63,639 nucleotides of DNA, filler included, from Chrysochromulina tobinii (GCA_001275005.1; 8 parts of 8 records of this genome joined end to end with filler, not necessarily neighbours in it), one strand, 5' to 3'. Counted from the first letter of the whole stretch, positions 28,162 through 60,911 are shown. The notes: generated by a model from the letters alone, not told the origin. Program-made: numbers and translations.

Positions 28162-30903
28162 GGCGGCGACGGCGTCGGCAGCGGCGACGGCGGCGGCGGC
28201 GGCGGCGGCAGCGACGGCGGCGGCAGCGACGGCGGTGGTCGCGAGCGTCCCTAATTTGGCAATGGCGAGCGTCCACGACGGCGAGGTCGCGGCTGAGGCG
28301 ATCTGCGACGGCGAGGTCGCGGCAGATGCGATCTGCGCGAACCGTCGGCGCTGTGCCACGTCACCACCGAGCGCCCACGAGCGCATCGCATAGTCCGTCA
28401 GCGGCATGCCAAACCAGGCCAGCATGCGCCCCGCGCCGAACCCATGCTCAATCTCGTTCAAGTGGAGCGTCGCGAGAGTATTCTCCGCACCTGGTCATTA
28501 GAGGTCATTAGAGGTCATTAGAGGTCATTAGAGGTCATTAGAGGTCATTAGAGGTCATTAGAGTATTCTCCGCACCGGGTTTGGGCCAGCGGATGAAAAA
28601 GTCCGCACGGAACGCAGAGGAGCCCAGCGCCGTCGCGAGCACGCGCAGCGTCGCGCGCACCTGATGAGGGAGGCAATCAAGAGCGGCCGTCAAGAGCCAT
28701 CGGGAGCGCCGTCACGAGCGCGCGCAGCGTCGCACGCACCACCTCAACGACGGTCCGCCCCAGCAATCAATTCGCAATCAATTCGCAATCCATTCGCAAT
28801 CCATTCGCAATCCATTCGCAATCCATTCGCAATCAAGTCGCACGCACCACCTCTACGACAGTCCGCCCCAGCGCATCGCCCGCGACGACGCTCTCGAGCA
28901 CCATGGACGTGTGGCGCGCGCGCGCCGGTGGGCTGTGAACGTCGTGATTTGCATGTGTGAACGTCGTGATTTGCAGGAGGGCGGTGTGAGGTGTGAGGTC
29001 GGGCACAGCACTCAATGTCGGTGTGAAGGCGGTGTGAAGGCGGGTGTGAGGTCGGGCACAGCGAATCCATGGCACTCAATGACACTCAAAAAGCATACAT
29101 AGGGCATTCAATGGCACTCAACGGCAAGCACCTGTGCACGTGCGCGTTACATGAGGGCGGTGTGAAGTCGGACACGGCCACCAGAGCCTCATGTCCCTCG
29201 AGCAACAGCAGCCGCTCCATGCAGTTGGTGCGTGCCGCGAGCACCTACACGCGCGCGCCGTCATCAGAGGTCATCAAAAGTCATCAGAGGCCATCAGAGG
29301 TCATCAGAGATCATCATAAGTCATCAGAAGTCATCAGAGGTCATCAGAGATCATCAGAAGTCATCAGAGATCATCAGAAGTCATCAGAGATCATCAGAAG
29401 TCATCAGAGGTCATCAGAAGTCATCAGAAGTCATCAGAGGTCATCAGAGATCATCAGAAGTCATCAGAGGGGAGCACCTGCACGCGCCCGCCGTTGATGC
29501 AGAGCACTGCGAGTTCCTGATCATATGGCACCTGACCCTCAATGATGAGCGTGCGGGAGCCGCCCGCGGCAGCGCGACCCGACTTGAAGATGGACTCGGC
29601 CTGCGTGAGGATGAGCTCCTCGAACCAACGGGCGCGGCTCACCTGCCAAGCTCAGATGGGCCTGCATCATTAGGATGACCTGCATCATTAGGATGAGCTC
29701 TGCGAACCAACGGGCGCGGCGCACCTCACGCACTGACGCATCACCCGCGCTGAGAGCCTTCACGGGCGCATAGGCCCACAAGGAGCCATTCGAGAGGTTG
29801 GGAGGGTTGGCAAGACGAGGCCTGGGCTCGCCGCTCGGCATTGGTACGAACCGAAGCGGCTCGATCTGGTCGAGGCTCAGGCAGAGCAGAGGTCATTAGA
29901 GGCAATTAGAAGCCATCAGTGGTCATCAGTGGTCATCAGTGGTCATCACACCTGGTCGAGGCTCAGGCAGAGCAGGCCGCCGCTGTTGGTACCCATCGTG
30001 GGCTTGAGGACAAGGCGCTTGTGGTGGCGCAGGAGCACCTAAATGTCCGCAGAGGCCATCAGGGGCACTTCAAAGGCCGCAGAGGCCATCAGGGGCACTT
30101 AAAAGGCCGCAGAGGCCATCAGGGGCGCTTCAAAGTCCGCAGAGGCCATCAGCGGCGCAGCGAGGGGATAATGGCAAGGCGCCGTGGCGAGCGACTCGTA
30201 ACCGCCGCCGCCGCCGCCGCCGCTGAGCATCGTGCTGCTGGCGCCCATGCCGAGGGTGTCGCTAGCCGTTGTGGGTACAGATGCGATCGGGCTGGTACGC
30301 TTCTTCGACTTAACGGGGAGGCGATAGTCATCAGAGGTCATCAGGAGGGGAACACACCTCCAGTCGCAGCTCACAGCACGGGTCTGAGGGCGCGAGGAGC
30401 GTGCGGGAGGTCGTCAGAACGGGCACGTACTGCCCGTCGTCGTCCACCGCAAAGTCGGCCTCCGCGCCCACGTCGACGCCACCCATCGGGTCGTCGACGA
30501 AGGAGCACGTGTGCAGAGTCGGTACGATGAGCGCGATCGGCACTCCCAGCCCCACCCAGTGCTCCTTGCGCAGCGCCTTGTCGTCCGACCAAGCCCCCGC
30601 ATCGCACCGGAAGGACGCTCGCTTCTGGGCCGCGTGAAAGCATCCAATCAGCTGGGACAGAGAGCTCGCGTAATTGGCTCCTTCCGCGCTGCTCGGCCCC
30701 TTCCACGACGCATCAGCCAGCCCAAACAGCAGGCTATGGCGGTTGGCGCAAAGGTCTTCCTCGAATTGGTCCGCGACCGTTTTCGGCGACGCAGCGCCGT
30801 CAATGAATATGTCTTGGTACATGTTCGAGTGTTGCCCAGCGGGCGCGCGCGCACACCTGCACTTCGCCCACCGTCTCGTGTGGGACCTTCCCGATCGGGA
30901 CAT
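28162..30903 (-). CDS. Intron-rich ATP-grasp-fold protein, 3'-truncated; not seen as a single ORF
   Basis: Splicing introns 29866-29951, 29643-29724, 29245-29477, 28933-29131, 28661-28847 and 28491-28575 gives RLVLKPTMGTNSGGL…LIIEGQVPYDQELAVLCINGG…FRADFFIRW…LHLNEIE, the ATP-grasp motif order (KPxxG; ExxxxxE; RxD; NE). Structure between 30039 and 30357 is unresolved. Confidence 0.7.
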
Positions 30904-31061
30904 GTTGCAGATTTCCAGATTTATCAAGTTCGAGTTCCGATGAAGTTAGCGCGCTCTGTCGAGGCTTTACGGTTAACAACTTTCGGCCCATCAGTCAGTT
31001 GGTGAAGCTCTGTAGTCTCGCATCCCGAAACAAACTATGCGCGTTGTTATGAGCGTTGACG

Positions 31062-34071: not shown

Positions 34072-37000
34072 ATGTCACTGGCGCTCGCGTTCGTGCTCGT
34101 CGCCCTCGGCCAGTCGTGCACCGACCGCTCGAACGAGTGTGGCACATGGGCGGCCCTTGGCAAGTGCTCCAAGGATCGGAGCCACATGTCCAAGGAGTGT
34201 CCCTACTCGTGCAAAACGTCGTGCGGTGGCAAGGGCGCGGCGCTGGTGGCTGCGATTGCGCTCGAGCCGGTGCCGAAGGCCGACCAGTATAGACAGCTGG
34301 GCGACATTTACGCGATCGAAGGCAAGATGGTGGCGTCCGAGCAGGCGCTGCGCCTGGCCACCGAGATCGCACCCACCGACAGCGAGATCCAACGGCTTCT
34401 CGGCACGGTCGTGAAGCGATTGGGCGACGCCGAGGGAGCGCTCGCTTTGTTCCGCAAGGCTGTGCAGCTCAACCATTCGAACGCATGGGCGCACGTCAAC
34501 ATCGGCAACGCGCTCACTCCGGGCGATGAGTGCTTCGCAGCGTACCGCGAGGCCATCCGTGTCGACCCGACCATGACGAACGCGTACATCAGCCTGGGCG
34601 ATAAGCTCCTCATGGGAGGCCGCGCGGAGGAGGGCTTCGCGACCCTACGCTCCCTCGCGGCCTTCTCGGCGCAGCATGATCCCGGCCGTCTCTACGAGAA
34701 GCTCGCCGAACACCAAAGGGTCGTCGAGGCTGCCTACGCCCAGACCCTCGCTGACGCCAGGCGCGGCCCCCAGACCTCTGCAGTGGCTCGCAATTGGATC
34801 GAGTACACGCGAGAGGCGCTAGGCGACGACAAGTGCCGCAACCCGCGCACTCGGATGGAGTGTGAAGAGAAGTGCCTGACGCCCGCATGCATTGAAGGAC
34901 TCGAAGAGGCGCTTCAACATGTCACCACCCATGTGCGCGTGGACGAAGCGCCGCATGGCGAGGAGTACATGTATGTACCGCCGCTCTGACGACCTCTGAC
35001 GACCTCTGCCGACGATCTGATGAGCTCTGATGAGCTCTGATGAGCTCTGATGAGCTCTGATGAGCTCTGATGACCTCTGCCAAGCTCTGATGAGCTCTGA
35101 CGGAGCGTACGTGTATGCACCGCCGCCACTGATGAGCTCTGATTGCGACGGATGAGCCCTTGATTGCGTCCTTCATCAGGTATCGCGTCATCGGCCAGTC
35201 CGAGAGCCAACCTTCCCTGATTGCGACTGATGACCCTTGATTGCCGCCTTCATCAGGTATCGCATCATCGGCCAGTCCGAGAGGCAACCTTCCCGTGCGC
35301 CGCTTGAGCCGGCGGTTCTCAAAGGAGCCGTTGATGAGGCGTGGGCGCCGTACCGGTGGAGCGCTTCGTCTCGGGCGCTCACCGAGGCAGCGGGCGAGGA
35401 CGAAGTCAAAGTGACGGTGACACAGCGCGGCAAGTTTGAGGTGTGAATAGATTAGATGAGCCCTTGATTGCCGCCCTCATCAGGTGTCGGAGAACGCAAC
35501 CACTCGAGCTCATCTCCATTCCCTGATTGCAACTGATGACCCTTGATTGCGTCCTCCATCAGGTGTCGGAGAACGCAATCACGCGAGCTCCGACGAGCTC
35601 CATTCGCGTCGCGGATCTGGTCGCGCTGCTTCACTCGAAGCGCACGCTCAATACGACGCTCTACACGCGCCAGGTTCGTCAATTGCATGCTGATCGGCCG
35701 CCCCTGCGATGGATGGCCTCTCGCCTTGCATGCTGATGGCCTCCCTGATTGCATGCTGATGGCCTCTCGCCTTGCATGCTGATGGCCTCCCTGATTGCAT
35801 GCTGATGGCCTCTCGCCGTGCATGCTGATGGCGCGCCCTGTGCTCAACACGACGCTTCGTCCAACCCTTATTTGCAGGCAACTCTCGACATGATGCCGCG
35901 CTTGCTTTCGACGGTGGCGTCCACGCCGTGGCTGGCGAACTTGCGACTGCAGGCGAGCCTGATTGCATCCCTCATTGCGAGCCTGAGTGCATCCCTCATT
36001 GCATGCTGATTGCGCTCCAGCATCGTCGGCTAGTTGCATGCTGATGGCCTCCCTCATTGCATGCTGACACATGGTTGCATGCTGGCACCGCAGACCATCA
36101 CCATGTGGCTGGGCGACGGCCATTTCCACAACACGCTCCACAACGACCCATGGGACAATTTCCTCTGCCAGCTCCAAGGCACGCAACGGATGACCTTAGA
36201 TGACCTCTGATGACCTCTGATGACCTCTGATGACCTCTGATGACCTCTGATGACCTCTGATGACCTCTGATGACCTCTGATGACCTCTGCCAGCTCAAAG
36301 GTACTCTGCTCGGGCCGCCCGCGTGCGAGTGCTCACCACGGCCCACTTACCCCACACAGGTACGAAACACGTACTGCTCTGGCCGCCCGATGCGCGCCCT
36401 CTCCTGTATTATGCCAAGCGCCAAAATACGTTCGCCGAGTACGCGCCCTCGACGGGGGAGAAGCGGCACCGTCGTGTCATCGAGACTGACAACACCGCCG
36501 GAGTCAACATCGCCAAGGTCGCCTTTGCACAGATGGCCTCTGATCGCCTCTGATGGCCTCTGATCGCCTCTGATCGCCTCTGATGGCCTCTGATGGCCTC
36601 TGATCGCCTCTGATCGCCTCTGATTGCCTCTGATGGCCTCTGATGGCCTCTGATCGCCTCTGATCGCCTCTGAGTCCCTCTGATCGCCTCTGATGACCTC
36701 TGATTGCCTCTGATCACCTCTGATGGCCGACTGAAGGCAGTTGCCGCTCTTTCGGCACGCCTTCACATGCCAGTGCTCATCACGGCGCCCTGTCCCGCAG
36801 GTCGACTTTGGACAGTTCCCGCTCTTTCGGGACGCTTTGAAGCAGATGCGGTACGCGAAGCTCGAGCGCGGCGACTGCTTCTTCCTCCCTCGCGGCTGGC
36901 ACCACGTCGTCTTCTCCGTGGTGGGGACGCCGGCGAATTTCAATTTGGCGATCAACTTCTGGTTCAATCGCGAAGCTACCCTCAAGGGCGCGAAAGAGGG

Positions 37001-40250: not shown

Positions 40251-40284
<34 letters not shown>

Positions 40285-43200
40285 GGTGGACAGTGACGAT
40301 CCATTCGCAGGGCTCTTCTCCGGCATAGCGCCGCCGCCGGCTACGTCACCGTCGGTCCCGCGGCGAATCTCGTTAGACCGTCCCGCGAGTAGCAGCAGCG
40401 GCACTGGCGGGCTCGATCCAAATTTGGAAAGTCGGGCCGATCTCATCGCACCTACCAAATTTGGGTCAGAGATGGTCGTCAGTCGGTCGGAGGAGGCACA
40501 TACGATCACGTGTGTCGAGCAGATGGCGCCGGCGGCGCAGGTACCGACCTACCTTCCCAAGATCCCGTCCGTCCGTGCCGCGTCCCCCTTGCGACTGCAT
40601 GCATGTGCTCACCACGGCGCGTCCTCTTCCCCACAGGAGGCCATCCGAATGCTCCAAAAGGGGTGTCAGGCTCTCAAGTTTGGCAGGCAGGGCAAGCCTC
40701 ACTCGGTGCGGCGCTGCGTCCACTGAGTGCGACTGAGTGCGACTGAGTGCGACTGAGCGCGTCCGCGTGCGTTGCATGCTGATTGCCTCCCCCATTGCAT
40801 GCTGATTGCCTCCCTCATTGCATGCTGATTACCTCCCCCATTGCATGCTGATTACCTCCCTCATTGCATGCTGATTGCCTCACCCATTGCATGCAGGTGC
40901 TCTTCCGCCTGTCCGAGGACCTCCAGACGTTATCCTCATTGCATGCTGATTGCCTCCCCCATTGCATGCAGGTGCTCTTCCGCCTGTCCGAGGACCTCCA
41001 GACGTTATCCTGGGAGAAGAAGGGCCTGCAGGGTCTCGGCAAGGACATGGCGATGGGTTTCGGCAAGATGATGGGGGGTGGGTTCGCGAAGAGCGCCGAC
41101 ACGGCGCGCCGAGTCGACCTGAGTACTTTGGTGGAGGTGCTGCAGGTGCGTGCTAGCCTTGATGGCGTCTGATGGCGCACGATGGCGTCTGATGGCGTCT
41201 GATGGCGTCTGATGGCGTCTGATGGCGCCTGAGTGCGTCTCTCATCAACTGCTCGTCGTGCTTCAGGGCCCTGAGAGCAATGTCATTCGACGCAACCGCG
41301 GCGAGAAGCCGATTTCGTCCGCGGACGCGGGTGGCGGCACGGTGGAGGGCGACTACTCGTCATACAAGGAGGCCAAGGAGAACTTGTGCCTCTCGCTGCT
41401 CTTCGTGAGCAACGAGAAGGATGCAGACCGTGACTCGCTCGATATCCAGTGAGAGAGCGACGAGGGCTTTGCATGATGATTGCATGCTGATTGCATGCTG
41501 ATTGCATACTGATTGCATGCTGATTGCATCTTTGAGCACATGCTGATTGCACCCTTCATCAGGTGCGAGAGCGACGAAGCATTCATCAGCTGGGTCGTGG
41601 GGTTCCAAGCCCTCATGGCGCTGCATGAGGCGCTGAGCGGTGGGTTCGATGCGCTCTCGAGCGTGCTGCATGCTGATTGCATGCTGATTGCATGCTGATT
41701 GCATGCTGATTGCATGCTGATTGCATGCTGATTGCATGCATGCTGAGCGGTGGGTTCGATGCGCTCTCGAGCGTGCTCTCTGAGTGCATGCTGATTGCAT
41801 CTCTGAGGACGTGCTGATGGCCCCCTTCATCAGGTGGGGCTGAGGGGCTTGCGAGTGTCCGTGTCGAGCGCGAGGCCGCCCGTGCGCGGGCCCTCGCGCG
41901 GAGTGCGCCGCAGGTACGCAACTGATGACCTCTGATGACCTCTGATGACCTCTGATGACCTCTGAGGACCTCTGAGGACCTCTGAGGACCTCTGAGGACC
42001 TCTGAGGACCTCTGAGGACCTCTGAGGACCTCTGAGGACCTCTGATGACCTCTGATGGCCTCTGATGGCCTCTGATGGCCTCTGATGACCTCTGATGACC
42101 TCTGATGACCTCTGATGACCTCTGATGACCTCTGATGGCCTCTAATGACCTCTGATGACCTCTAATGACCTCTGATGACCTCTGATGGCCTCTAATGACC
42201 TCTGATGACCTCTGATGACCTCTGATGACCTCTGATGACCTCTGATGACCTCTGATGACGTACGCGGGCCTCGCTCGGAATGCGCCGCAGCTCTACCAAG
42301 CGATGCTGGAGCGCGAGGAGAAGCAGATGCAGCAGATGATGCGAGAGGCTGAAGAGGAAGCCAACCGGCAGTATGAGGCCTCGCGTGCGCGCGCAGAAGC
42401 GGCGGATCGTCAAGCTTTCGAAGCGAGGGTGAATGCCACTGATGACATCTGATTGCATCTGATTGCATCTGATTGCATCCCTCATCAGGTGCGTCGCGAG
42501 GCAGAGGACCTCTACTTTCCTCTTGATCGCCTTTGATGACCTCCTGATTGCCTCCCTCATCAGGTGCGTCGCGAGGCAGAGGACCAGGCGAACGCGCTGC
42601 TCGAGGCTGCTCGTAAGGAGGCTGAGCTTGCGCCGTTAGCAGGCGTCTTCGAAGGGCAGAGGTACTAAGTGCCACTGATGACGTCTGATTGCATCTGATT
42701 GCATCCCTCATCAGGTGCGTCTTCGAAGGGCAGAGGTACTAAGGAGGTTGATTGCCATCTGAGTGCATCGGATGGCCTCTGATGGCCTCTGATGGCCTCC
42801 CTCATCAGGTACCGGATGTCCGCTGATGTCCTCTGATGGATGTCCTCTGATGGCCTCTGATGACCTCTGATGACCTCTGATGACCTCCCTCATCGACTGA
42901 TGGCCTCTGATGGCATGCTGATTGCCTCCCTCATCAGGTACTATGGAGGCGGCTCAATGCCCCTCGGGCTGCCTGATCCCTTCTCTCCAGGCCTCTCGTC
43001 CGCAATGGCGGCGGCGGCGGCGGCGATGGCGGCGGGAGATCCGTCCGCCATGATGGCTCTCCGCGCGAGATTAGCCGAGGTTGAGGAGGAGAACCGACGG
43101 TTACGCGCCAATGGCGGCGGGCGGCGTGGGGGGGGCGGCGGCGTCGAAGAGGAAGAAGACGAGCAGGTTGTGCTCGATCGCAAGTGCTTCGAGGCGTATG

Positions 43201-44326
43201 AGGCCGCCCGCGTCGCGATGATGGCGACGCTCGAGGCTGGCAAGTTCCCCACAGCCGCCGAGTACGCAGAGCGTGATCTGATGAGCTCTGATGGCCTCTT
43301 AATCAAGTCTGATGATGAGTTCTGATGATGATCTCTGATGATCTCTGATGACCTCTAGTGACCTCTAGTGACCTCTGATGACCTCCCTCATCAGGTATGC
43401 GGCGCGTGATCTGCACCTGTACCGGCTCTCGGATGCGGACCTCCAAGCGGAATATGCGCGCTACACGGTAACTCCGCGGATGAGCTCTGATGACCTCTGA
43501 TGACCTCTGATGAGCTCTGATGACCTCTGACGACGTCCCTCATCAGGCGCTGTACCTCGCGGACGAGACGAAATCCATCGTGCGCGGGATGGCGGAGATG
43601 ACGGTCATCAAGCTTGGGGAGATGGTCGACAAGCCGCAGGCGAAGCGCATTCAGATGATGGCGCGGCAGGTAAGCGAGGGCCCTCTAATGGACCCCTGAT
43701 TGCACTCTGATGGACCCCTGATTGCCCTCTGATGGCGCGGCAGGTAAGCGATGGCCCTCTAATGGACCCCTGATTGCACTCTAATGGACCCCTGATTGCC
43801 CTCTGATGGCGCGGCAGGTAAGCGATTGCACTCTAATGGACCCCTGATTGCCCTCTGATGGCGCGGCAGGTAAGCGAGGGCCCGGGAGAGGACCCTTTGG
43901 TGACCCCTCTGATGGCCTCTCTGATGGCCCTCTGATGGACCTCTGATGGACCCCTGATTGCACTCTGATTGCACGCTGCTGAGTGCGACCGATTGCGCGA
44001 CTCATCAGGTGATGGAGGCGCGGCTTATGTCGCCCTGATGACGCTCTAATGACGCCCTGATGACACCCCGACGGCGCCCTGATGACGCCCTGATTGCCTC
44101 CCTCATCAGGTGGAGGAGGCGCGGCTTGCGAATGAGGCTCGCGAGAGGGAGCTCGCCGAAGGCGCGGCGGCGCGCGAGAAGCGTGCAGCGCTCGATGCGA
44201 TGAACCGCAGGGCATACGATGCATGCGTACCGGTATGGAAGGAGCTCAAGGCGCGCGCCGTGGCGGGCGTCGTGGCGGGTGCCGACGGCGGCGGCGGCGG
44301 GGGCGGGGGCGGCGGCGGCGGCGGGG
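39158..44326 (+). CDS. Large coiled-coil / GGGM-repeat / PH-domain protein, 3'-truncated, ~11 introns
   Basis: Spliced PH domain of PLC/PRAF type: MLQKGCQALKFGRQGKPHS|VLFRLSEDLQTLSW…RRVDLSTLVEVLQ|GPES…LSLLF…SLDIQ|CESDEAFISWVVGFQAL. Introns: 40541-40636, 40706-40971, 41146-41266, 41449-41562, 41640-41833, 41914-42290, 42429-42563, 42662-42937, 43262-43394, 43468-43546, 43670-44109. Confidence 0.78.
41922..42258 (+). repeat. Intronic 10-nt tandem array (CTGATGACCT / CTGAGGACCT / CTGATGGCCT / CTAATGACCT), about 33 copies
   Basis: Directly visible. Related arrays occur at 24485-24652, 28494-28560(-), 29260-29470(-), 35017-35100, 36190-36288, 36535-36725, 43275-43385 and elsewhere. Confidence 0.95.
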
Positions 44327-44426
44327 NNNNNNNNNNNNNNNNNNNNNNNNNNNNNNNNNNNNNNNNNNNNTTAATTAATTAANNNNNNNNNNNNNNNNNN
44401 NNNNNNNNNNNNNNNNNNNNNNNNNN

Positions 44427-47400: not shown

Positions 47401-50400
47401 CGCCTTGTAGCCGCGGAGCGCTAGGGGCGATAGCTGCAGAGCGCGAGGGGCGTAGCTGAGCCCGAGAGGCGCTACCCGAGAGGCGATAGATGCCGAGCCC
47501 GAGAGGCGATAGCTGCGGAGCCCGAGAGGCGATAGCTGCGGAGCCGGAGAGGCGATAGCTGCGGAGCCCGAGAGGCGATAGCTGCGGAGCCGCGAGAGCT
47601 GATATAGGCTACGGAGCCGCGATAGCTGAGCCTGAGAGGCAATAGCTGCCAAGCCTGAGAGGAGGTAGCTGATAAGCCCAAGGGCCATAGTTGATAGCTT
47701 AACCGGAGAGGTGATTGATGCTCAGGCGCACTCAGGCTCACTCGGGCGCACTCATGAGGCAAGCTGCCAAGCCTGAGAGCCCGAGGGCAAAAGTTGATAG
47801 CTGACTCGGGCGCACTCATGAGGCAAGCTGCCAAGCCTGAGAGCCCGAGGGCAAAAGTTGATAGCTGAACCTGGGCGCACTCAGGCGCAATCGGGCGCCT
47901 TAAGGCGTCACTCAGGCATCACTCGGGCGCACTCAGGCGCACTCGGGCGCACTTAGGCGTCGCTCGGAAAAGCCTAACGCGGTCAGCGAAGGCAGCCTTA
48001 AGGCGTCACTCAGGCATCACTCGGGCGCACTCAGGCGCACTCGGGCGCACTTAGGCGTCGCTCGGAAAAGCCTAACGCGGTCAGCGAAGGCAGAAGCCAA
48101 TCGCTGTCGACCTTTGGGCGACACAGCATGGGTCCGTACGGACGCTGTGCGCTTGGTACGTGGGCTGCGAGGCAGCTCTGTCCTTTTCACGGAAAGGACG
48201 CATCAGCCGCGGGTTCTCAGGTTGGCTATGCTGGGCATCAGCTGCGGGTTCTCGGGTTGGCTGCTGGGCAGCGTGCGTGCTCAGCGCAGTGGGGCGACTC
48301 TGGTCCTTTTCAGGTTCGAGTGCTTCCGCCTTGGGCGGTGGCTCGGGCGTCGCAGCTAAGCTGCGCGCGGGCCGGAGGCTGCATAAGCTGCTAGCCAAGT
48401 GCGCATAAGCTGCGAATGGGCTGGCTCGAATTCCGATTTTTCAGGTATTCGAGTGCTGCCGTCACGTAGGGATGGCGCAGTATATCGCATGCAGCTTGGG
48501 TCAGCCAGGGACGCTGCATGCTAACCGGAGTTTGGCGGGCCTGTGAGATGCAGGCGGTGCCACAGAGTGATGCCAGGCATGGTACTCGATCGCTGTCGGG
48601 GCGCAGGGGTGAAGGCGCTTGAGGCGATCGTGTCCGTATTGACCGGCACTGTCGTATCCTCCACAGTCACCGTAGGGGGCTTGGAGAGGCTCTGTTAGAG
48701 GTGGGCGGCGGCCATCGCCTGAGCTTGGGTCAGCCAGGGACGCTGCACGCTAACCGAAGTTTTGGCGGGCCTGTGGGGCAGGCGGTGCCATGTACCAGCA
48801 CCGATAGATTGTGCGGCCGTGGTGCTCGATTGCCGTCGGGGTACGATATTGTGCAGCCGTGGTGCTCGATTGCTGTATGTGCCAAAGGCCTGAGATGCAA
48901 ATCGGGACACTGGGAGATGTGCGGGCAGCTAGCTGCGCCTCCGAGGCGATAGCTGATCCCAAGGGGCGATAGCTGCAGCTGAGCCCAAGAGGCGAAAGCT
49001 GCTGAGCCCAAGAGGCAATAGCTACTAAGCCCTATCAGCGATAGCTGCCGAACCCGAGAGGCAATAGCTGGAGGCGATAGCTGTAGCTGAGCCCCAGAGG
49101 CGTTAGCTGCTGAGCCCAAGAGGCGATAGCTGCTGAGCGTAAAGGAAATGCTGCTGAGCCTATTGAGGCAACAGCTGCTGAGCCCGTCAAGGTGATAGCT
49201 GCTGAGCCCATCAAGGAGATAGCTGCTGAGCCCATCAGGGCCATAGCTGCTGAGCCCATCAAGGCGATAGCGGCTGAACCCACCGAGGCAATAGCTGATG
49301 GACCCGTCGAGGCTATAGCTGCGGAGCCTGTCAAGGCAATAGCTGCTGAGCCCGTCGAGGGCTTTGATGAGACGTCGAGGCGAGAGCTGGCAATAGCTGT
49401 TGAGCTGCTGAGCCCGTCGAGGCGATAGCTGCCCGTCGAGGCGATAGCTGCTGAGCCCGTCGAGGCGATAGCTGCTGAGCCCGTCGAGGCGATAGCTGCT
49501 GAGCCCGTCGAGGCGACAGCTGCTGAACTGCTGAGCCCGTCGAAAGGCGATAGCTGCCGAGCGGCTGAGCTCGTTGAGGCGACAGCTGCCGAGCTGCTGA
49601 GCTCGTCAAGGTGACAGCTGCTGAGCTCGTCGAGGCGACAGCTGCTGAGCTGCTGAGCTTGTCGAGGCGACAGCTGCTGAGCAGCTGAGCCCGTCGAGGC
49701 GATAGCTGCTGAGCTGTTAAGCTCGTCGAGGCGATAGCTGTTGAGCTGCTGAGCTCGTCGAGACGATAGCTGCTGAACTGCTGAGCTCGTCGAGGAGATA
49801 GCTGCTGAGCTGCTGAGCTCGTCAAGGCGACAGCTGCTGAGCTGCTGACCCCGTCGAGGCGATGGCTGCTGAGCTGCTGACCCCGTCGAGGCGATAGCTG
49901 CTGAGCTGCGGAGCTCGTCGAGGCGATAGCTGCTGAGCTGCCGAGCTCGTCGAGGCGATAGCTGCTGAGCTGCTGACCCCGTCGAGGCGATAGCTGCTGA
50001 GCTGCTGACCCCGTCGAGGCGATAGCTGCTGAGCTGCTGAGCCCGTCGAGGCGATAGCTGCCGAGCTGCTGACCCCGTCGAGGTGATAGCTGCTGAGCTG
50101 CTGAGCTCGTCGAGGCGATAGCTGCTGAGCTGCTGAGCTCGTCGAGGCGATAGATGCTGAGATGTCGAGGCGACAGCTGGCGATAGCTGCCGAGACCGTC
50201 GAGGTGATGGCCGCTGAGCCGCTGAACCATCAAAGCGGCTGAGCTGCCGAGCCTATCGAAGCGACAGCTGCCGAGCCTATCGAAGCGACAGCTGCTGAGC
50301 CCATCGAGGCGACAGCTGCTGAGCTGCTGAGCCCGTTGAGGCGATAGCCGCTGAGCTGCTGAGCTCGTCGAGGCGATAGCTGCTGAGCTGCTGACCCCGT

Positions 50401-53400
50401 CGAGGCGATAGCTGCTGAACTGCTGAGCTCGTCGAGGCAATAGCTGCTGAGCTGCCGTGCCCGTCGAGGCGATAGCTGCCGAGCTGCTGACCCCGTCGAG
50501 GTGATAGCTGCTGAGCTGCTGAGCTCGTCGAGGCGATAGCTGCTGAGCTGCTGAGCTCGTCGAGGCGATAGCTGCTGAGCTGCTGAGCTCGTCGAGGCGA
50601 TAGATGCTGAGATGTCGAGGCGACAGCTGGCGATAGCTGCCGAGACCGTCGAGGTGATGGCCGCTGAGCCGCTGAACCATCAAAGCGGCTGAGCTGCCGA
50701 GCCTATCGAAGCGACAGCTGCCGAGCCTATCGAAGCGACAGCTGCTGAGCCCATCGAGGCGACAGCTGCTGAGCTGCTGAGCCCGTTGAGGCGATAGCCG
50801 CTGAGCTGCTGAGTCATGGAGGTGATAGCTTTGCCCGTCGAGGCGAGAGCTGGCGAAAGCTGCTGAGCCTGTCGAGGCGGTAGCTGCTGAGCCCGTCGAG
50901 GCGAGAGCTGCCAAGCTTCTGAGCCCGCCGGGGCGATAGCTGCCAATCTGCTGAGCCCGTCGGGGTGATAGCTGCTGAGCTGCTGAGCCTGTCGAGGCGA
51001 TAGCTGCTGAGCTGCTGAGCTCGTCGAGGCGATAGCTGCCAAGCTTCTGAGCCCGTCGGGGTGATAGCTGCCAAGCTGCTGAGCCTGTCGGGGTGATAGC
51101 TGCTGAGCTGTTGAGCCCGTCGAGGCGACAGCTGCTGAGCTGCTGGGCCCGTCGAGGCGATAGCTGCTGAGGCGGTACCCAGGCGAAGGCTGTGGCGATC
51201 CCTGAGACGACGCCCGAGACGATGCCCGGGGTAACGGCCGCAACGGTGTCCAAGGAAAGGTCGCGGCGATGGGGGCGACAGCTGAGGATAGCTGGGATGA
51301 TGCCCGAGGCAACGGCCAGAGGGATGAGGCGAGAGCTATGGCGAGGCGCCGGCTGTGGCAATAGCTGCGGCGATGGCTGCGGCGAGGGCCAGGGCAGTGG
51401 CCAAGGTGACACGAGGTTAGGCTCAAGGCGACGCTCGAGGACGACGATAGGATGACGAGGCGATGCCCGAGGCAATGATTGGGGTGGTGGCCGAGGCAAT
51501 GGCTGTAGCGAGGCACAAAGTGGTGCCCAATGCGCTGGCTGTATGCCTAAGGCGGCGACCGAGGCGACTGGCGAGGCGAGTTCCGAGGTGATACCCGAGG
51601 CGACCCGAAGCCATGCCCGAGGAACTGGCCAGAGTGATGGCCGGGCTAGACCGGTCCTCAAAGACGCCGTGGAGATCCGCAACAGAGGCCACCGCTGTGG
51701 TCTCCAACGACAAATGGAGTTCCAAACGTGCAAAGACGGGACCAAGTCCCCAGCGGGTAAGATGTGCTCAACGAAGAAGGATAAAGAGCCTCCCAATTGC
51801 GGCGATGGACCCGAATGAAGAACCGATCATCGAGAGCGGAGTCATTCTCATGAAGGTGGCCGCCGCAAAGGCGCAAGAATACTCGATGGGCAGAAAAGAG
51901 CAAGCTGCCCAACGGAAGATGCAGTCGACAGAGCCCACAAAACCGGCGTCGGAGCAGCAGCCCTCTGGAGGGTATGAGTGGCGACGATGCGGCGCGATGG
52001 TATAGAGATAATGTCCCTGTTTCGCTGAAAAGTCGCCGAACACGCGAACGTGTGTTGGCCCTGACTGCTGCGCTGAGAGCTTCGTGGGGTTGCTCTTGGG
52101 AGCGCCGCCATTTCGTTTTGGCAAGACAGAGATGCCTGGGCGGGACGAAACGTCTGCCGGCGAAACGTTTCACCGGGGCGCCCAGCAGGGCCCTGCCCCC
52201 CCCGTTGGATGACGTTTGGTATGGTCTCACACCGTTGGTGTATGTGTGCCCATGCGATAGAGACCGATAGTCTCGGTTGGTTCTTGTAGGCACACACCAC
52301 TGATCGGATATCAACCCTGCCCAGCGGGTGCTCAGCCAACGGGTGGAGCGCTCTCCCACCGTACCCTTCGGCTGGCTGCGGAAGCGAGCCTTGCCCGCTC
52401 TGGTACCTCACTCGCCGGGGTTACCTTCACCCCAGCCCAACCGCCCTTCACTGTTAACTCGCTCCTCGGCGAGAAGACAAATCTGACGCAGAAGAAACCT
52501 TCTCGTACGTGAGCTCGTTAAGGGATTGAATGTTTAGAAAGCCGCGGGTGCTCGCCATGGCGCGAGCCCCCCTATGGTCCCTGTTGGTCGAGCGCGTCGA
52601 GCGGCTTGATAAGCAAAAGAGAGCTCGTTTGGAGTGACTTGGCCAGTGGGAGGGCAGAACCCGAGAGGATAGGGCCTAAAGGGTAGTGGCAGAGCCCGAG
52701 AGGCAGCAGAGCCTGAGAAGCGATAGCCGAGCCTGAGAGGCGATAGAGACCGAGAGGCAATAGCTGAGCCCGAGAGGTGATAGAGCCCCAGAGGCGATAG
52801 AGCCCGAGAGGCAATAGCTGAGCCCGAGAGGTGATAGAGCCCCAGAGGCGAAAGCATCGCTTGATAGCAGAGCCCGAGAGGCGATGGAGCCTGAGAGGTG
52901 ATAGCAGAGTCCAAGGGGTGACAGAGCCTGGTAGGCGATAGCAGAGCCGGCGAGGCGATAGAGCCCAAGAGGCAATAGCAACGCCCGAGCGCTATATAGA
53001 GCCCGACAGGCGATGTGGCGGAGCCTGAGAGGCGACGGAGCCCAAGAGGCCTTTGAGCCCAAGGCGCCAAGGGGCGGTAGCGAAGTCCAAGAGGCTATAG
53101 AGCCCGAGAGGAGACAGCAGAATCCGAGAGGCCATAGAGCCCAGAGGGGCGACAGGAGAGCTCGAGGAGACGGAGCCTGGAGAGAAGTTCGCAGAGCCAG
53201 ATAGGTAGAGAGCTCGAGAGGCAATAGAGCCCGCGGGCCAATAGCTGAGCCCGAAAGGTGAAAGCTGCTGAGCCCAAGAGGCGGTAGCTGCTGAGTCCCA
53301 CAGGGGATAGCTGCGGAGCCCAAGAGGTGATAGCTGATAGCTGCTGAGCCCAAGAGGTGATAGCTGATAGCTGCTGAGCCCGAGGGGCAATAGCTGCTGA

Positions 53401-53934
53401 GCCCGAGAGGCGATAGCTGCAGAGCGCGAGTGGCGATAGCTGAGCCCGAGAGGCGATAGCAGCTGAGCCCGAGAGGCGATGGCTGCTGAGTCCGAGAGGC
53501 GACAGCTGCTGAGCCCGAAGGGTGATAGCTGCTGAGCCCGAGAGGCGATGGCTGCGGAGCCCGAGAGGCGATAGCTGCTGAGCCCGAGAGGCGATAGCTG
53601 TAGAGCGCGAGTGGCGACAGCTGCGGAGCCCGAGAGGCGATAGATGCTGGGCCTGCGAGGCGCTAGCTGCGGAACCCGAGAGGCGATAGCCGCGGAGCCC
53701 GGAGGCGATAGCTGTTTAGCCCGAGAGGCGATAGCTGCTGTGCTCAAAAAGCGATAGCTGCTGAGCCTGAGAGGCGATAGCTGCTGAGCCTGAGAGGCGA
53801 TGGCTGCGGAGCCTGAGAGGCGATAGCTGCTGAGCCCGAGAGGCGCTAGCTGCTGAGCCCGAGAGGCGATAGCTGCTGAGCTCGAGAGGCGAGAACTGCT
53901 GAGCCCAAGAGGCGATGGCTGCGGAGCCCGAAAA
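44427..53934. repeat. Complex minisatellite/satellite contig: ~23-nt unit GAGCCCGAGAGGCGATAGCTGCT and a 24/32-nt variant GAGCCCGTCGAGGCGATAGCTGCT(GAGCTGCT), with short unique islands
   Basis: Hundreds of degenerate units. Type A spans ~44427-47650 and ~52650-53934; type B spans ~49180-51170. All long ORFs here are translated repeats (QQLSPLGLSSYRLSGSAAIASR). Confidence 0.93.
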
Positions 53935-54034
53935 NNNNNNNNNNNNNNNNNNNNNNNNNNNNNNNNNNNNNNNNNNNNTTAATTAATTAANNNNNNNNNN
54001 NNNNNNNNNNNNNNNNNNNNNNNNNNNNNNNNNN

Positions 54035-57774: not shown

Positions 57775-57850
57775 GTTCAGTTCAGTTCAGTTACTACATA
57801 AACAACAGACAACCTAACGGAACTGAACTGAACTGAACTGAACTGAACTG
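57775..57850. repeat. Inverted pentamer microsatellite pair (GTTCA)n … (AACTG)6 around a 28-nt A-rich core
   Basis: GTTCAGTTCAGTTCAGTT-ACTACATAAACAACAGACAACCTAACGG-(AACTG)6. Confidence 0.85.
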
Positions 57851-57956
57851 GGGGTTCCCCGTTGTCTTTTCTGGTTCGCGCTGTTCACGCTTCATTTTCG
57901 GGTTCAACGCGTTTCCAAACCGATTGAGTTCCTCGTCGGGGCCTCAGTCCATTTTG

Positions 57957-58185
57957 ATGGAGAAGGTCCGGCGAGCAATGTCGCCCGCGCCGGCCAAGGC
58001 GCCGACAGTGGCGAGCACAGCGAAGCCGACGAAGAAGCAGCTCGCTGCTGATCCGATCCAGAAGCTCAAGGATCGGCTCGTTCGCGGCGAGCGTCTCACT
58101 GAAGAGGAGCTCGTGCAGCTGGAGCAGGCATCGGTCGCCCGCTACGCAGATCTGGCTGATGATTCGAAGCGCGGCGACAAGGGTG

Positions 58186-58216
<31 letters not shown>

Positions 58217-59112: not shown

Positions 59113-59212
59113 NNNNNNNNNNNNNNNNNNNNNNNNNNNNNNNNNNNNNNNNNNNNTTAATTAATTAANNNNNNNNNNNNNNNNNNNNNNNNNNNNNNNN
59201 NNNNNNNNNNNN

Positions 59213-60911
59213 CACTCGCGCTGTTGGCAAGCAGCTCGCGCGCCTTGGGCAGGAGCCGACGCGCGTACCTGTGGGGAAGAGAGAGAGAGAGAGAGCGGGC
59301 GGGCGCCGTGGTGAGCACGTGCAAGCAGCTCGCGCGCCTTGGGCGGGAGCGACGCGCGCACCGGCCATCGGTGCCCTTGATGTCCTTGGCCACCGCCTGG
59401 GAAATGAGCGACGAGATTTGGGGAGCGGGTGGGCCGTTGAGGCTGAGTGAACGGCCCGCGGAGAAGATCGATTCCTCAAAGAGCCCCACGTCGAGGGCTG
59501 CGAGGGCGGCGTGCTGCCATAGCTGCCAGTTGTCACTGCGCAGCGCGCACGCCTGCCGGAAGGCGTAGAGAGCCTCGCGCTTCATCTTCTGGCGCGCAAA
59601 CAAGCCGCCGAGGGACGACCATGCCTGGTAGTGTGTCGGATCGAGTGTGATCACCTTGCGCATGTCGGCGAGCGCCGTATCGAGCGCATCGAGCTTGAGT
59701 GAGCAGACCGCGCGGCAGTACCATGCCTCCGCGTAATGGCTGCGCGCGCCGAGGGCATCGGACAGGTGGGTACGGGCTTCTTCCCACTGCTCGAGGCGCA
59801 TTGCGTTCGAGCCGAGCTTGAGCTTCGCGCGCGCGAGATGCTGTTTGGAGAGGGTCCACGCATGCTCGTAGTGCTCAATCTCGCCGGTGAGATCGCCCAG
59901 GTGCATCCACATCGTGGCCGTAGGTGCCACCTCGAGCTGATGGCGCACCGCCCTGAGGCGGGGGAAGGCGGGTCTCATTAGTGGTACTCAGAGGTCACCC
60001 GAGGCCATCCGAGATCATCAGAGGTCATCCGAGGTCATCCGAGGTCATCAGAGGTCTTCGGACAACCAAGCGCTGAGGTCTCATCTTTTTTTTTTGGGGG
60101 GGGGGCAGGCGCACCTCCTTGGTTGACCCGCATTGCTTTTCGAGGTGCAGTCGCGCCTCCCAGTGCACCGGCTCATTCGGCTGGGCACTCGCGCTGTTGG
60201 CAAGCAGCTCGCGCGCCTTGGGCAGGAGCCGACGCGCGTACCTGTGGGGAAGAGAGAGAGAGAGAGAGAGCGGGCGGGCGCCGTGGTGAGCACGTGCAAG
60301 CAGCTCGCGCGCCTTGGGCGGGAGCGACGCGCGCACCGGCCATCGGTGCCCTTGATGTCCTTGGCCACCGCCTGGGAAATGAGCGACGAGATTTGGGGAG
60401 CGGGTGGGCCGTTGAGGCTGAGTGAACGGCCCGCGGAGAAGATCGATTCCTCAAAGAGCCCCACGTCGAGGGCTGCGAGGGCGGCGTGCTGCCATAGCTG
60501 CCAGTTGTCACTGCGCAGCGCGCACGCCTGCCGGAAGGCGTAGAGAGCCTCGCGCTTCATCTTCTGGCGCGCAAACAAGCCGCCGAGGGACGACCATGCC
60601 TGGTAGTGTGTCGGATCGAGTGTGATCACCTTGCGCATGTCGGCGAGCGCCGTATCGAGCGCATCGAGCTTGAGTGAGCAGACCGCGCGGCAGTACCATG
60701 CCTCCGCGTAATGGCTGCGCGCGCCGAGGGCATCGGACAGGTGGGTACGGGCTTCTTCCCACTGCTCGAGGCGCATTGCGTTCGAGCCGAGCTTGAGCTT
60801 CGCGCGCGCGAGATGCTGTTTGGAGAGGGTCCACGCATGCTCGTAGTGCTCAATCTCGCCGGTGAGATCGCCCAGGTGCATCCACATCGTGGCCGTAGGT
60901 GCCACCTCCGG
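59213..60911 (-). CDS. TTC27: Two tandem near-identical copies of TTC27/Emw1-like TPR exons (partial gene)
   Basis: MWMHLGDLTGEIEHYEHAWTLSKQHLARAK…LDPTHYQAWSSLG…ALRSDNWQLWQH resembles the C-terminal half of TTC27. Copies lie at ~60186-60911 and 59213-59936, with introns 60242-60336, 59937-60114 and 59269-59361. No N-terminal half is visible. Confidence 0.75.

What the first reader, a model, noticed from the sequence alone, without database searches (positions are those of the whole stretch)
28491..59361. Exon copies run in register into the filler through microhomology, as if primed on a reusable template
Seen: the last bases of the exon copy are also the first bases of the filler unit. Examples: …AATACTCT|AATGACCTCT (intron starting 28575), …CGTGATCTG|ATGAGCTCTG (43262), …GCTCATCCT|AATGATG (29724), …AACCTTCCC|TGATTGC (35180), …GTTATCCT|CATTGCATG (40897), …GAGGACC|TCT (42489), and …GCTTGC|ACGTGCTCACC aligning to cassette GCATGCAAGTGCTCACC (59361). 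On the other side, …AATGACCT|CTGCTCTG (29866). Inference: this is the signature expected if a free DNA 3' end anneals to a short template and is extended repeatedly, by polymerase-theta-type templated insertion or a telomerase-like or retro-type polymerase, before rejoining. The template could be other introns or intron RNA.
Basis: partly seen in the sequence, partly recalled or inferred. Interest (0 to 1): 0.85.

Follow-up and report, generated by a model that had tools for sequence, protein, structure and literature searches.

The report
Introns born by copy-and-rejoin repair
In this alga's genes, short introns consist of a copy of the neighbouring exon joined to repeat filler through a few shared bases, far more often than chance gives, which likely marks introns made by error-prone copy-and-rejoin DNA repair rather than by a classical jumping element.

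Summary
Observation confirmed; interpretation partly supported.

The region is nuclear DNA of a GC-rich alga; an earlier scan note calls it a haptophyte. Its introns have the form [copy of flanking exon, 10-75 nt] + [filler]. The filler is either a 10-11-nt CTGATGACCT-type array or a ~50-nt cassette ending CCCCACAG. RNA contigs show eight GT..AG introns in one gene. Three of them are exactly one repeat period long.

The exon copy runs into the filler in register more than chance gives.
- Window: 18 evaluable junctions, summed shared length 60 against 19.4 ± 4.6.
- 134 non-redundant metagenome loci: 53 junctions, mean 2.30 against 0.61 nt, z = 13.8.
- Other-phase and permuted-exon-end controls also fail to reach the observed value.

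The effect is modest: 0-7 nt at 'de novo' junctions, and 11 of 39 of these have none.

The copy length has no fixed value, and the filler starts and ends at many phases. This fits microhomology-primed templated synthesis or template switching, not a transposase. Two fillers look like copies of neighbouring introns. A telomerase-like or short reusable template is not supported. The enzyme, and whether the template is DNA or RNA, remain open.

An earlier scan note (e1-2577349) had already found repeat-flanked introns in this genome.

The parts
28491..28575 (-). 85-nt intron. It consists of a 16-nt copy of the downstream exon start (28560-28575), the filler (AATGACCTCT)7 and AATGACCAG. CTCT is shared in register at the exon-copy/filler joint.
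   Evidence: Removing it is needed for an open 285-aa frame.
28661..28850 (-). Two adjoining units. The first has period 108, a 36-nt repeat and TTGATTGCGAA-type filler. The second has period 79 and a ~35-nt repeat. They are spliced as one 190-nt intron or as two introns 3 nt apart.
29245..29477 (-). 233-nt intron in which both splice sites lie inside a 25-nt repeat (..GTGCAG|GTGCTC..). The filler is a (CTGATGACNT)n array.
29643..29724 (-). 82-nt intron. It starts with a 35-nt copy of the downstream exon start (3 mismatches), followed by filler whose 18-nt unit re-uses TCATCCT from the end of the exon copy.
   Evidence: (shared length 7).
29866..29951 (-). 86-nt intron of the mirror type. The filler starts GTGTGATGACC, and a 24-nt copy of the upstream exon end supplies the 3' CAG. 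The joint AATGACCT|CTG is in register.
   Evidence: (shared length 4, P = 0.045).
34965..35179 (+). Intron whose 5' 20 nt (GTACATGTATGTACCGCCGC) recur at 35107, with a CTGATGAGCT array between the two copies. This is the same architecture, but inside an intron.
   Evidence: An RNA contig piece ends at about 34970.
35139..35294 (+). 77-nt unit present twice. Each unit holds the filler end, the 3' splice site and 38 nt of exon start. The joint is CCTTCCC|TGATTGC.
   Evidence: (shared length 5).
35478..35590 (+). 79-nt period unit. Its filler is homologous to the filler at 35218-35256, including TTCCC from that unit's exon copy.
40859..41011 (+). 75-nt tandem duplication of filler end, 3' splice site and 37 nt of exon. 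CCT is shared at the joint.
41449..41562 (+). 114-nt intron equal to one repeat period. The exon copy GTGAGAGAGCGACGA is followed by TTGCATGCTGA-array filler and CCCTTCATCAG.
   Evidence: RNA joint 41448>41563 in 3 of 4 runs.
41640..41833 (+). 194-nt intron that contains a 36-nt repeat (41632/41742) of exon end plus 5' splice site, with a TGCATGCTGAT array between the copies. GCTGA is shared at the filler-to-copy joint.
   Evidence: RNA joint in 2 of 4 runs.
41914..42290 (+). 377-nt intron equal to one repeat period. It reads GTACGCAA + (CTGATGACCT)~34 + a ~31-nt diverged copy of the upstream exon end, which supplies the 3' CAG.
   Evidence: RNA joint in 2 of 4 runs.
42429..42563 (+). 135-nt intron that holds a 75-nt duplicated unit: filler end, 3' splice site and a 22-nt exon copy (42490-42510). 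The downstream 3' splice site is the one used.
   Evidence: RNA joint in 3 of 4 runs.
42660..42935 (+). 276-nt intron made of two nested units, one with period 74 (27-nt repeat) and one with period 202 (14-nt repeat). The filler at 42670-42716 looks like a copy of the intron at 42432-42496.
   Evidence: Adjoining pieces of RNA record 9.
43262..43394 (+). 133-nt intron equal to one repeat period. A 19-nt exon copy (16 of 19 identical) runs into ATGAGCTCTG filler through TCTG.
   Evidence: RNA joint in 3 of 4 runs; (shared length 6).
43670..44109 (+). 440-nt intron. It holds about 2.8 copies of a 74-nt unit (exon end, 5' splice site, filler; TGATGG shared) and a 101-nt period unit at its 3' end.
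   Evidence: RNA joint in 3 of 4 runs.
59227..59361 (-). Cassette-type intron. A ~41-nt copy of the downstream exon start is followed by ACGTGCTCACCACGGCGCCC..(CT)n..TTCCCCACAG. A second copy of the whole locus lies at 60200-60325.

Best explanation
The exon copies do run into the filler in register, and this likely records microhomology-primed templated synthesis.

Inferred sequence of events:
1. During break repair or replication, a DNA 3' end inside an exon (or inside an intron) would pair by 1-7 bases with another intron's branch-point array or 3' cassette.
2. It would copy a stretch of that template.
3. It would then pair back upstream on its own template.
4. The product is [target copy]-[filler]-[target copy].

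Survival in exons (inferred): only products that can be spliced out exactly would persist. The repeat supplies one or both splice sites (AG|GT) and the filler supplies the rest.

Shown here:
- the architecture of the units;
- splicing of the introns, and that some are exactly one repeat period long;
- the excess of in-register microhomology at both joints;
- the absence of a fixed repeat length or fixed filler ends.

Inferred only: that a polymerase switched templates. The enzyme, whether the template is DNA or RNA, and break repair versus replication are all open.

The 74-77-nt tandem units need only one backward switch within the same intron.
For: Architecture: the units are visible.

Splicing:
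- RNA contigs give GT..AG joints for 8 introns in the region 41.4-44.2 kb (seven listed joints and one from adjoining pieces of a record). Three introns (114, 377 and 133 nt) equal one repeat period exactly.
- The spliced product is open in one frame only.

Microhomology above chance:
- Window: 60 against 19.4 ± 4.6.
- Metagenome loci: 122 against 32.2 ± 6.5, z = 13.8.
- De novo J1 (exon copy to filler): 1.96 against 0.63 nt. De novo J2 (filler to exon copy): 1.87 against 0.59 nt.
- Other-phase control: 75 against 11.2. Permuted exon ends: 47 against 18.9, and 28 against 6.9.

No transposase-like regularity:
- Repeat length is 10-75 nt, median 26, with a broad spread.
- Filler starts use 8 of 10 phases, and filler ends are spread over 8 phases.

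Frequency: repeats of at least 12 nt flank 75 of 212 arrays, against 20 of 636 mismatched flank pairs.

Copying from other introns:
- 42670-42716 matches the intron 240 nt upstream, with 38 nt exact and apparently running past its CAG into GTGCGTC.
- The fillers at 35.2 kb and 35.5 kb are homologous, including 5 nt of exon-copy origin.

The same architecture occurs inside introns, where no splice-site selection acts (34965, 41632, 36162).

Stuttered [copy + filler] x 2-3 structures occur.
Against: - 11 of the 39 de novo junctions have no shared base, and the mean is only about 2 nt.
- 10 of 24 de novo filler starts are at one phase (TGATGACC). This hints at a partly fixed end or a target preference.
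- The cassette family has a constant 3' end, as a discrete element or an RNA 3' end would.
- A window-wide test of whether the best-matching filler lies nearby was not significant, P about 0.19. Adjacent arrays sharing the same unit numbered 3 against 0.95 expected (listing; the count, the expectation and a rough P of about 0.07 are my hand reckoning). Copying from neighbours therefore rests on two cases.
- In the better of these two cases, the flanks of donor and recipient also resemble each other weakly, so an older segmental duplication is not excluded.
- No empty-site allele was seen.
- No enzyme could be examined, because no genome is held for this window.
Confidence: 0.6

Rival explanations
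1. RNA-templated insertion. A nicked or broken target 3' end primes reverse transcription on intron RNA or pre-mRNA, as in target-primed reverse transcription or RT-assisted break repair. This would give a 3'-intact, 5'-truncated insert with a variable-length target duplication.
For: - Many fillers and all cassettes keep a constant 3' end (..CCCTCATCAG..CCCCACAG), while the 5' joint varies.
- The repeats are variable in length.
- The microhomology sits at the variable joint, as recalled for 5'-truncated L1 insertions.
- The repeat often begins (C)AG|GT, overlapping the intron's 3' end.
Against: - Mirror-type fillers keep the 5' GT and lose the 3' end. Internal-type fillers have neither end.
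- One copy seems to run past the donor's CAG into its exon, which excludes an excised intron, though not pre-mRNA.
- There is no poly(A).
- The constant 3' end is also what selection for a working 3' splice site would leave.
- No reverse-transcriptase gene could be sought.
Confidence: 0.15
2. A dedicated mobile element (an introner-type transposon or similar) that inserts and duplicates its target. The shared bases would reflect a target-site preference.
For: - Cassette family: 31 core hits in the window and loci, with a conserved ~45-nt 3' module.
- 10 of 24 array fillers start at TGATGACC.
- Permuted exon ends still give 0.79 nt per junction, slightly above the random-exon null of 0.63.
- Introners are reported in a Chrysochromulina MAG (passages of 10.1101/2022.06.06.494994).
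- The earlier scan note e1-2577349 read it this way.
Against: - The repeat length is spread over 10-75 nt rather than fixed.
- Filler ends fall in 8 of 10 phases on either side.
- The pairing of each exon end with its own filler phase is specific. The permuted control gives 18.9 against 47 observed.
- Published introners have target duplications of 3-8 nt (passages of 10.1101/2022.06.06.494994 and 10.1101/2020.10.14.339549).
- I did not test for terminal inverted repeats.
Confidence: 0.1
3. Only ordinary in-cis events are involved: replication slippage and tandem duplication within pre-existing introns, together with array growth from a single branch-point motif. No foreign template would be needed.
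For: - The 74-77-nt units (35139, 40859, 42469, 43656) are plain [x S][x S]x tandem duplications spanning a splice site, with 3-6 nt shared.
- Each array is homogeneous, and some have 20-40-nt higher-order periods.
- Exonic in-frame tandem repeats also occur in the window.
Against: - In the 'de novo' units the first copy is preceded by unrelated exon sequence and the filler is absent from the flanks, so a single duplication cannot make them.
- An insert must be long enough to splice at birth. For example, at 28575 only 8 nt would remain without the array.
- The same unit variants and non-array filler recur in different introns.
Confidence: 0.1
4. Chance or artefact. The low-complexity filler and an arbitrary choice of boundaries would create apparent shared bases, or the structures would be assembly errors.
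For:
- 13 of the 31 window junctions could not be evaluated.
Against: - Four different nulls all fail to reach the observed sums, 0 of 20000 each.
- A metagenome contig is 100% identical over 1250 nt.
- RNA contigs splice the introns.
Confidence: 0.02

Closest known systems
Intron gain by double-strand-break repair with captured DNA (Li et al. 2009 on Daphnia, recalled and cited as ref. 10 in Farlow et al. 2011, PMC3020277, of which I read passages)
   Same: New introns are flanked by direct repeats that overlap the splice sites. Microhomology between the break ends and a captured or copied fragment is the proposed mechanism.
   Different: - As I recall it, the repeats there are shorter, a few to about a dozen bases; the passages I read say only 'short'. 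Here they are 10-75 nt (median 26).
- The filler here belongs to recognisable families (branch-point arrays, cassette).
- About a third of arrays carry the footprint.
- The same gene can hold eight such introns.
Introners, or introner-like elements (Gozashti et al. 2022, 10.1101/2022.06.06.494994; Roy et al. 2020, 10.1101/2020.10.14.339549; passages read)
   Same: - These are short multi-copy intron sequences.
- One splice site comes from the duplicated target and the other from the insert.
- Both arrangements occur (insert brings the 3' site, or the 5' site).
- Both splice sites can come from an AGGT in the duplication.
   Different: - Their target duplications are short and fixed per family: 3-8 nt, and 4 nt in the Chrysochromulina MAG.
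- Many have terminal inverted repeats and defined ends.
- Here the duplication length is not fixed, the insert ends are variable, and each joint shows event-specific microhomology.
Polymerase-theta end joining with templated insertions, and replicative template switching (FoSTeS/MMBIR). This comparison rests on recalled general knowledge.
   Same: - 1-7 nt microhomology at both joints.
- Inserts copied from other, sometimes nearby, sequence.
- Stuttered re-copying.
- Duplication of the flank.
   Different: - Inserts of 50-270 nt with flank duplications of tens of bases, fixed as functional introns, are not a described outcome as far as I know.
- The enzyme is untested here.
Intron creation by tandem duplication of an AGGT-containing exon segment (the Rogers model, recalled)
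   Same: In the 'internal' type, both splice sites come from the two copies of one AGGT (29477-29245, 28850-28743, 24473-24655).
   Different: Here a foreign filler always lies between the copies. In most units only one splice site comes from the repeat.

Membership tests
Introner (transposon-derived intron) | Target-site duplication of a fixed, short length per family | tested here: not met
   Repeat length is 10-75 nt, median 26, quartiles 18-32, in 77 units. In the window it is 9-61 nt.
Introner (transposon-derived intron) | Defined element termini (the same first and last bases in all copies; often terminal inverted repeats) | tested here: not met
   - Array fillers start in 8 of 10 phases and their ends are spread over 8 phases.
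- The cassette's 5' joint lies 4 to more than 35 nt upstream of the core.
- Partial exceptions: 10 of 24 fillers start at TGATGACC, and the cassette's 3' end is constant.
- Terminal inverted repeats were not searched for.
Introner (transposon-derived intron) | Multi-copy sequence family that creates introns, recruiting a splice site from the duplicated target | tested here: met
   - Cassette core: 31 hits.
- CTGATGACCT arrays: at least 143 loci.
- The splice point lies at the start, inside, or at the end of the repeat.
- The introns are spliced in RNA.
Break-repair (end-joining or templated) intron gain | Direct repeats of target sequence flanking or overlapping the splice sites of the intron | tested here: met
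   Repeats of at least 12 nt flank 75 of 212 arrays, against 20 of 636 controls.
Break-repair (end-joining or templated) intron gain | Microhomology between the target ends and the inserted sequence, above chance | tested here: met
   (0 of 20000 simulations in each).
Break-repair (end-joining or templated) intron gain | An intron-free allele or orthologue equal to a single repeat copy (empty site) | not tested
   The DNA-run joints were swamped by repeat artefacts. No relative's genome was available.
Polymerase-theta templated insertion | The insert is a copy of a sequence found elsewhere, often near the break | tested here: inconclusive
   There are two candidate donor-recipient pairs within 240-300 nt, but the proximity test was not significant (P about 0.19).
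Polymerase-theta templated insertion | Dependence on PolQ | not testable with these tools
Target-primed reverse transcription (L1-like) | 3'-intact, 5'-truncated copies with a poly(A) or RNA 3' end at the target nick, and a reverse transcriptase present | tested here: inconclusive
   - The 3' end is constant in the cassette and in many array fillers.
- Mirror and internal types exist as well.
- There is no poly(A).
- Reverse transcriptase is not testable here.
Telomerase-like repeat addition | One short unit set by a fixed RNA template and added de novo to a free end | tested here: not met
   - At least 12 different units of 10-12 nt occur in the window.
- Non-repetitive fillers and cassettes join in the same way.
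- Arrays show higher-order periods of 20-40 nt.
Tandem AGGT duplication (Rogers model) | The intron consists only of duplicated exon sequence | tested here: not met
   A filler of 16-355 nt lies between the copies in every unit except the pure 75-nt tandem at 40859.

The most novel reading that the evidence does not exclude
A transposase-free, repair-polymerase process is the main source of introns in this haptophyte. DNA 3' ends in genes prime by 1-7 bases on neighbouring introns (DNA or pre-mRNA), copy ready-made branch-point arrays or 3' splice modules, and rejoin upstream. Every event leaves a 10-75-nt exon duplication. This would be the first genome-scale natural record of intron birth by templated break repair, with donor, product and junction all readable.
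Probability: 0.45. Interest if true: 0.85.

Novelty: new variant of a known kind. Interest (0 to 1): 0.68.

Why it matters
How new spliceosomal introns arise is a long-standing question. The two leading answers are introner transposons and break-repair capture. Evidence for break-repair capture has been thin: a few dozen cases with short repeats.

Here about a third of array-bearing introns keep long, often perfect, exon duplications. Their joints can be scored statistically, and at least two possible donors can be read.

If the reading holds, this alga offers a system in which the rules of repair-mediated intron birth can be measured genome-wide and then tested genetically. Those rules include microhomology length, template choice, and which products are spliceable. 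Genetic tests could target PolQ or reverse-transcriptase candidates.

It also warns annotators that splice junctions inside 10-75-nt repeats are ambiguous to aligners.

Tried and rejected
1. A strict period-extension test inside the window could evaluate only 11 junctions, because the arrays are imperfect or do not abut the repeat. I replaced it with a word-match test against all fillers.
2. An automatic repeat screen over all spacings was swamped by filler-to-filler matches, giving 144 rows. I curated 24 units from it and. At least one further unit (28739-28661) was missed and only noticed later.
3. Splice compatibility of one-period excision in the metagenome units was 40 of 75 in sense against 30 of 75 in antisense. 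This does not discriminate.
4. Proximity of the best-matching filler was not significant, P about 0.19. Adjacent arrays sharing the same unit numbered 3 against 0.95 expected (listing; the count, the expectation and a rough P of about 0.07 are my hand reckoning).
5. The DNA run X1 laid on 16 kb gave joints dominated by repeat artefacts. No presence/absence call for any intron was possible.
6. There is no whole genome for the window.
7. Literature searches found no paper describing exon-copy-plus-array introns in haptophytes. The Chrysochromulina tobin genome paper mentions introns once (passages). The E. huxleyi genome paper is not held. I did not open any supplements.
8. The organism's name was not established. 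'Haptophyte' comes from the earlier scan note, and my first guess of Emiliania was not tested.

Full report
**What the region is.**

The window is GC-rich (58-73%) nuclear-type DNA. It is crowded with tandem arrays of 10-11-nt units such as CTGATGACCT, CTAATGACCT, CTGATGAGCT and CTGATTGCATG. No genome is held for it. I did not verify the organism's name.

**Anatomy.**

From exact-repeat lists, a spacing screen and inspection on the coding strand, I curated 24 units of the form A-F-A.
- A is a direct repeat of 9-61 nt of the gene's own sequence.
- F is a 'filler'. It is usually an array of branch-point-like units, often ending ..CCCTCATCAG. Otherwise it is a ~45-50-nt cassette, (GCATGCAAGT)GCTCAYCACGGCGCCC...CCCCACAG.

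The splice point AG|GT can sit in three places:
- at the start of A. The first copy then becomes the 5' end of the intron and the filler brings the CAG. Examples: 28575-28491, 29724-29643, 41449-41562, 43262-43394, 2989-2818.
- at the end of A. The filler then brings the GT and the second copy supplies the 3' end. Examples: 29951-29866, 41914-42290.
- inside A, so that both splice sites come from the repeat. Examples: 29477-29245, 28850-28743, 24473-24655.

The same A-F-A architecture also occurs inside introns, where the 5' splice region is duplicated (34965, 36162, 41632). It also occurs as plain tandem duplications of [filler end + 3' splice site + exon start] with periods of 74-77 nt (35139-35294, 40859-41011, 42469-42585, 43656-43895).

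**These are real introns.**

RNA contigs of four coded runs give GT..AG joints:
- 41448>41563 (skips 114)
- 41638>41833 (194)
- 41903>42281 (377)
- 42427>42563 (135)
- 43261>43395 (133)
- 43466>43546 (79)
- 43666>44107 (440)

Each is seen in 2-4 of the 4 runs. One record also joins 42659 to 42936, skipping 276.

Three introns (114, 377 and 133 nt) are exactly one repeat period, so splicing restores a single copy of A. In the tandem class, the downstream 3' site is the one used.

Joining these exons gives one open frame of about 400 codons, while the other two frames hold 10 and 13 stops.

For the minus-strand gene I had no listed RNA joints. Removing 29951-29866, 29724-29643, 29477-29245, 29131-28933, 28850-28661 and 28575-28491 gives a 285-aa open frame.

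A metagenome contig is 100% identical to window 42557-43806, so the structures are not an assembly artefact of this record.

**Is the microhomology more than chance? The window.**

For each internal junction, meaning the one not at the splice site, I took the longest suffix of the exon copy that, together with the first 7 filler bases, recurs somewhere else in the window's fillers.

The null inserted the same filler at random breakpoints of non-repeat sequence. It used 90 kb over both strands, or 2.7 kb of the units' own exon flanks, and it included chance extension of the repeat.

- Of 31 junctions, 18 could be evaluated.
- Their sum is 60 (mean 3.33) against 19.4 ± 4.6; 0 of 20000 simulated sums reach 60.
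- With only other introns' fillers as reference, 16 junctions give 41 against 16.8 ± 4.1, again 0 of 20000.
- By hand from the table, the 13 junctions of units flanked by exon give 41 against about 12.5.

Individual junctions vary: six have P of 0.01 or less, and seven are unremarkable.

**Is the microhomology more than chance? The replicate.**

- The loci are 62% GC and form 134 clusters at 90% identity.
- Of 212 arrays with both flanks, 109 have a flanking repeat of at least 10 nt, and 77 pass a filter that the repeat is not itself array.
- With array bases excluded, repeats of at least 12 nt occur at 75 of 212 arrays, against 20 of 636 mismatched flank pairs.

At the 53 junctions where an array abuts the repeat, the exact in-register run into the repeat has mean 2.30 nt against 0.61 under the breakpoint null. 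The sums are 122 against 32.2 ± 6.5, z = 13.8, 0 of 20000.

For units whose first copy is preceded by non-filler sequence ('de novo'):
- exon copy to filler: n = 24, 1.96 against 0.63 nt
- filler to exon copy: n = 15, 1.87 against 0.59 nt

Two further controls were run on these 39 junctions:
- Sliding the array to its other phases gives 11.2 ± 3.7 against 75 observed. The true phase is strictly best in 14 of 39, where about 4 are expected.
- Pairing each filler with another unit's exon end gives 18.9 ± 5.6 against 47, and 6.9 ± 3.8 against 28.

Beyond the first mismatch, identity is still 33.8% against 25.1% (P = 4e-4).

Against the claim: 11 of the 39 de novo junctions have no shared base, and the effect is a couple of bases, not long homology. 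None of the evaluable junctions came from L082, the one locus that overlaps the window.

**What kind of process.**

Repeat length is spread over 10-75 nt (median 26), and insert length over 53-267 nt (median 85). Fillers start in 8 of 10 phases of the unit, and their ends are spread over 8 phases. The cassette's 5' joint lies anywhere from 4 to more than 35 nt upstream of its core.

This is not the fixed 3-8-nt duplication and defined termini of published introners, including the 4-nt duplication reported for a Chrysochromulina MAG (passages of 10.1101/2022.06.06.494994 and 10.1101/2020.10.14.339549).

It is what is expected if a 3' end pairs by a few bases with a template, copies it, and pairs back upstream on its own template. 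From general knowledge, that describes polymerase-theta templated end joining at a break with overhangs, or FoSTeS/MMBIR-type switching. The nearest published idea for introns is capture or copying of DNA at breaks with short flanking repeats and microhomology (passages of PMC3020277).

Selection would then keep only the products that splice out exactly. That explains why the repeat so often contains or abuts AG|GT, and why exonic fillers carry a branch-point array and a CAG.

**Where the filler comes from.**

Two cases look like copies of a neighbour.
- Filler 42670-42716 matches the intron at 42432-42496, 240 nt upstream. There are 38 nt of exact match and one unit fewer. The match includes its non-array start TGCCACTGATGAC and seems to run past its CAG into GTGCGTC, which is also the start of the recipient's repeat.
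- The fillers at 35218-35256 and 35512-35562 are homologous. The second also carries TTCCC, which in the first is the end of the exon copy.

Unit variants are shared by different introns: AATGACCTCT at 28.5 kb and, on the other strand, at 32.8 kb; CTGATTGCATG at 41.47 and 41.67 kb.

However, a window-wide test of whether the best-matching filler is nearby was not significant (P about 0.19). In the first pair, the flanks also resemble each other weakly. 'Template = neighbouring intron' is therefore a lead, not a result.

**What is not supported.**

Nothing indicates a short reusable master template or a telomerase-like enzyme.
- At least a dozen different units occur.
- Arrays have 20-40-nt higher-order periods.
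- Non-repetitive fillers and cassettes join in the same way.

An RNA template remains possible. The constant 3' ends of cassettes and many fillers, the variable 5' joints and the variable duplications recall target-primed reverse transcription. Against it stand the mirror and internal filler types, the absence of poly(A), and the one copy that passes the donor's 3' splice site. That last point argues against an excised intron, though not against pre-mRNA.

An unexplained point: 10 of 24 de novo array fillers begin at the same phase, TGATGACC.

**Novelty.**

Seven full-text searches found no description of exon-copy-plus-array introns in haptophytes.
- The C. tobin genome paper mentions introns once.
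- The E. huxleyi transcriptome paper reports GC donors and intron retention but not this.
- The E. huxleyi genome paper is not held.
- I opened no supplements.

This scan had already seen repeat-flanked introns in this genome on other DNA (e1-2577349) and read them as a mobile family. My data add the event-specific microhomology at both joints, the broad repeat-length distribution, RNA proof of splicing, and candidate donors. Together these shift the reading from 'element' towards 'templated repair'.

I rate it a new variant of a known kind: repair-mediated intron gain.

**Verdict.**

Interest is 0.68.

Noticed in passing
window 44385-53931: About 9.5 kb of satellite-like arrays with 23-, 32- and 37-nt units (GCTGCTGAGCCCGAGAGGCGATA and relatives) and strong positive GC skew (0.15-0.22). 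The reverse complement of the unit contains ATCGCCTCT, like the filler unit CTGATCGCCT at 36532. Whether this stretch is a giant intron or intergenic satellite is unknown.
   Followed up: no
window 2847, 2899, 23315, 36331, 36775, 38368, 40607, 59316, 60291; loci L007, L016, L035, L069, L094, L098, L105, L121, L129 and others: A conserved 3' intron cassette, (GCATGCAAGT)GCTCAYCACGGCGCCC...CCCCACAG, with 31 core hits. Its 3' end is constant and its 5' joint is variable. It is often flanked by long exon repeats (44 nt at 38368, 28 nt in L094) and is sometimes reiterated two or three times together with the exon copy.
   Followed up: partly
window 59214-59960 and 60190-60940: A segment of about 750 nt recurs about 975 nt further on. 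It includes a cassette intron, and the two copies differ in the length of the (CT)n run. The two introns are therefore not independent cases. This may be a real duplication or two alleles assembled in tandem.
   Followed up: no
window 15937, 28062, 44327, 53935, 56269, 59113, 62295: Seven places each hold two runs of 44 N separated by 12 bases (616 N in all). This looks like masking or gap-filling rather than biology.
   Followed up: no
loci (list): 10 of 24 'de novo' array fillers begin at the same phase, TGATGACC, usually after an exon copy ending in C or CTC. The shared bases do not fully account for this.
   Followed up: partly
window 42643-42743: The nested units leave a possible 21-nt in-frame alternative exon (GT + GCGTCTTCGAAGGGCAGAG) between two usable splice-site pairs. 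The RNA contigs listed show only the form that skips it.
   Followed up: no
window 4657-4768 and 26144-26274: Near-perfect tandem repeats with unit lengths that are multiples of three: 33 nt x 3.4 and 36 nt x 3.6. This suggests the genome is prone to short tandem duplication in general. I did not check whether these stretches are coding.
   Followed up: no
window 36162-36179 versus 35067-35085: The sequence CCTCTGCCAGCTC next to the array at 36.2 kb is nearly the same as an odd unit (CCTCTGCCAAGCTC) inside the array of another intron 1.1 kb upstream. This is a possible trace of exchange between introns.
   Followed up: no
window 43468-43546: This RNA-confirmed 79-nt intron starts GTAACTCCGCGGA. 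That resembles GTACCTCGCGGA lying about 6 nt beyond its 3' splice site, a degenerate and offset exon copy. All eight RNA-confirmed introns of this gene therefore carry some exon-copy trace.
   Followed up: partly
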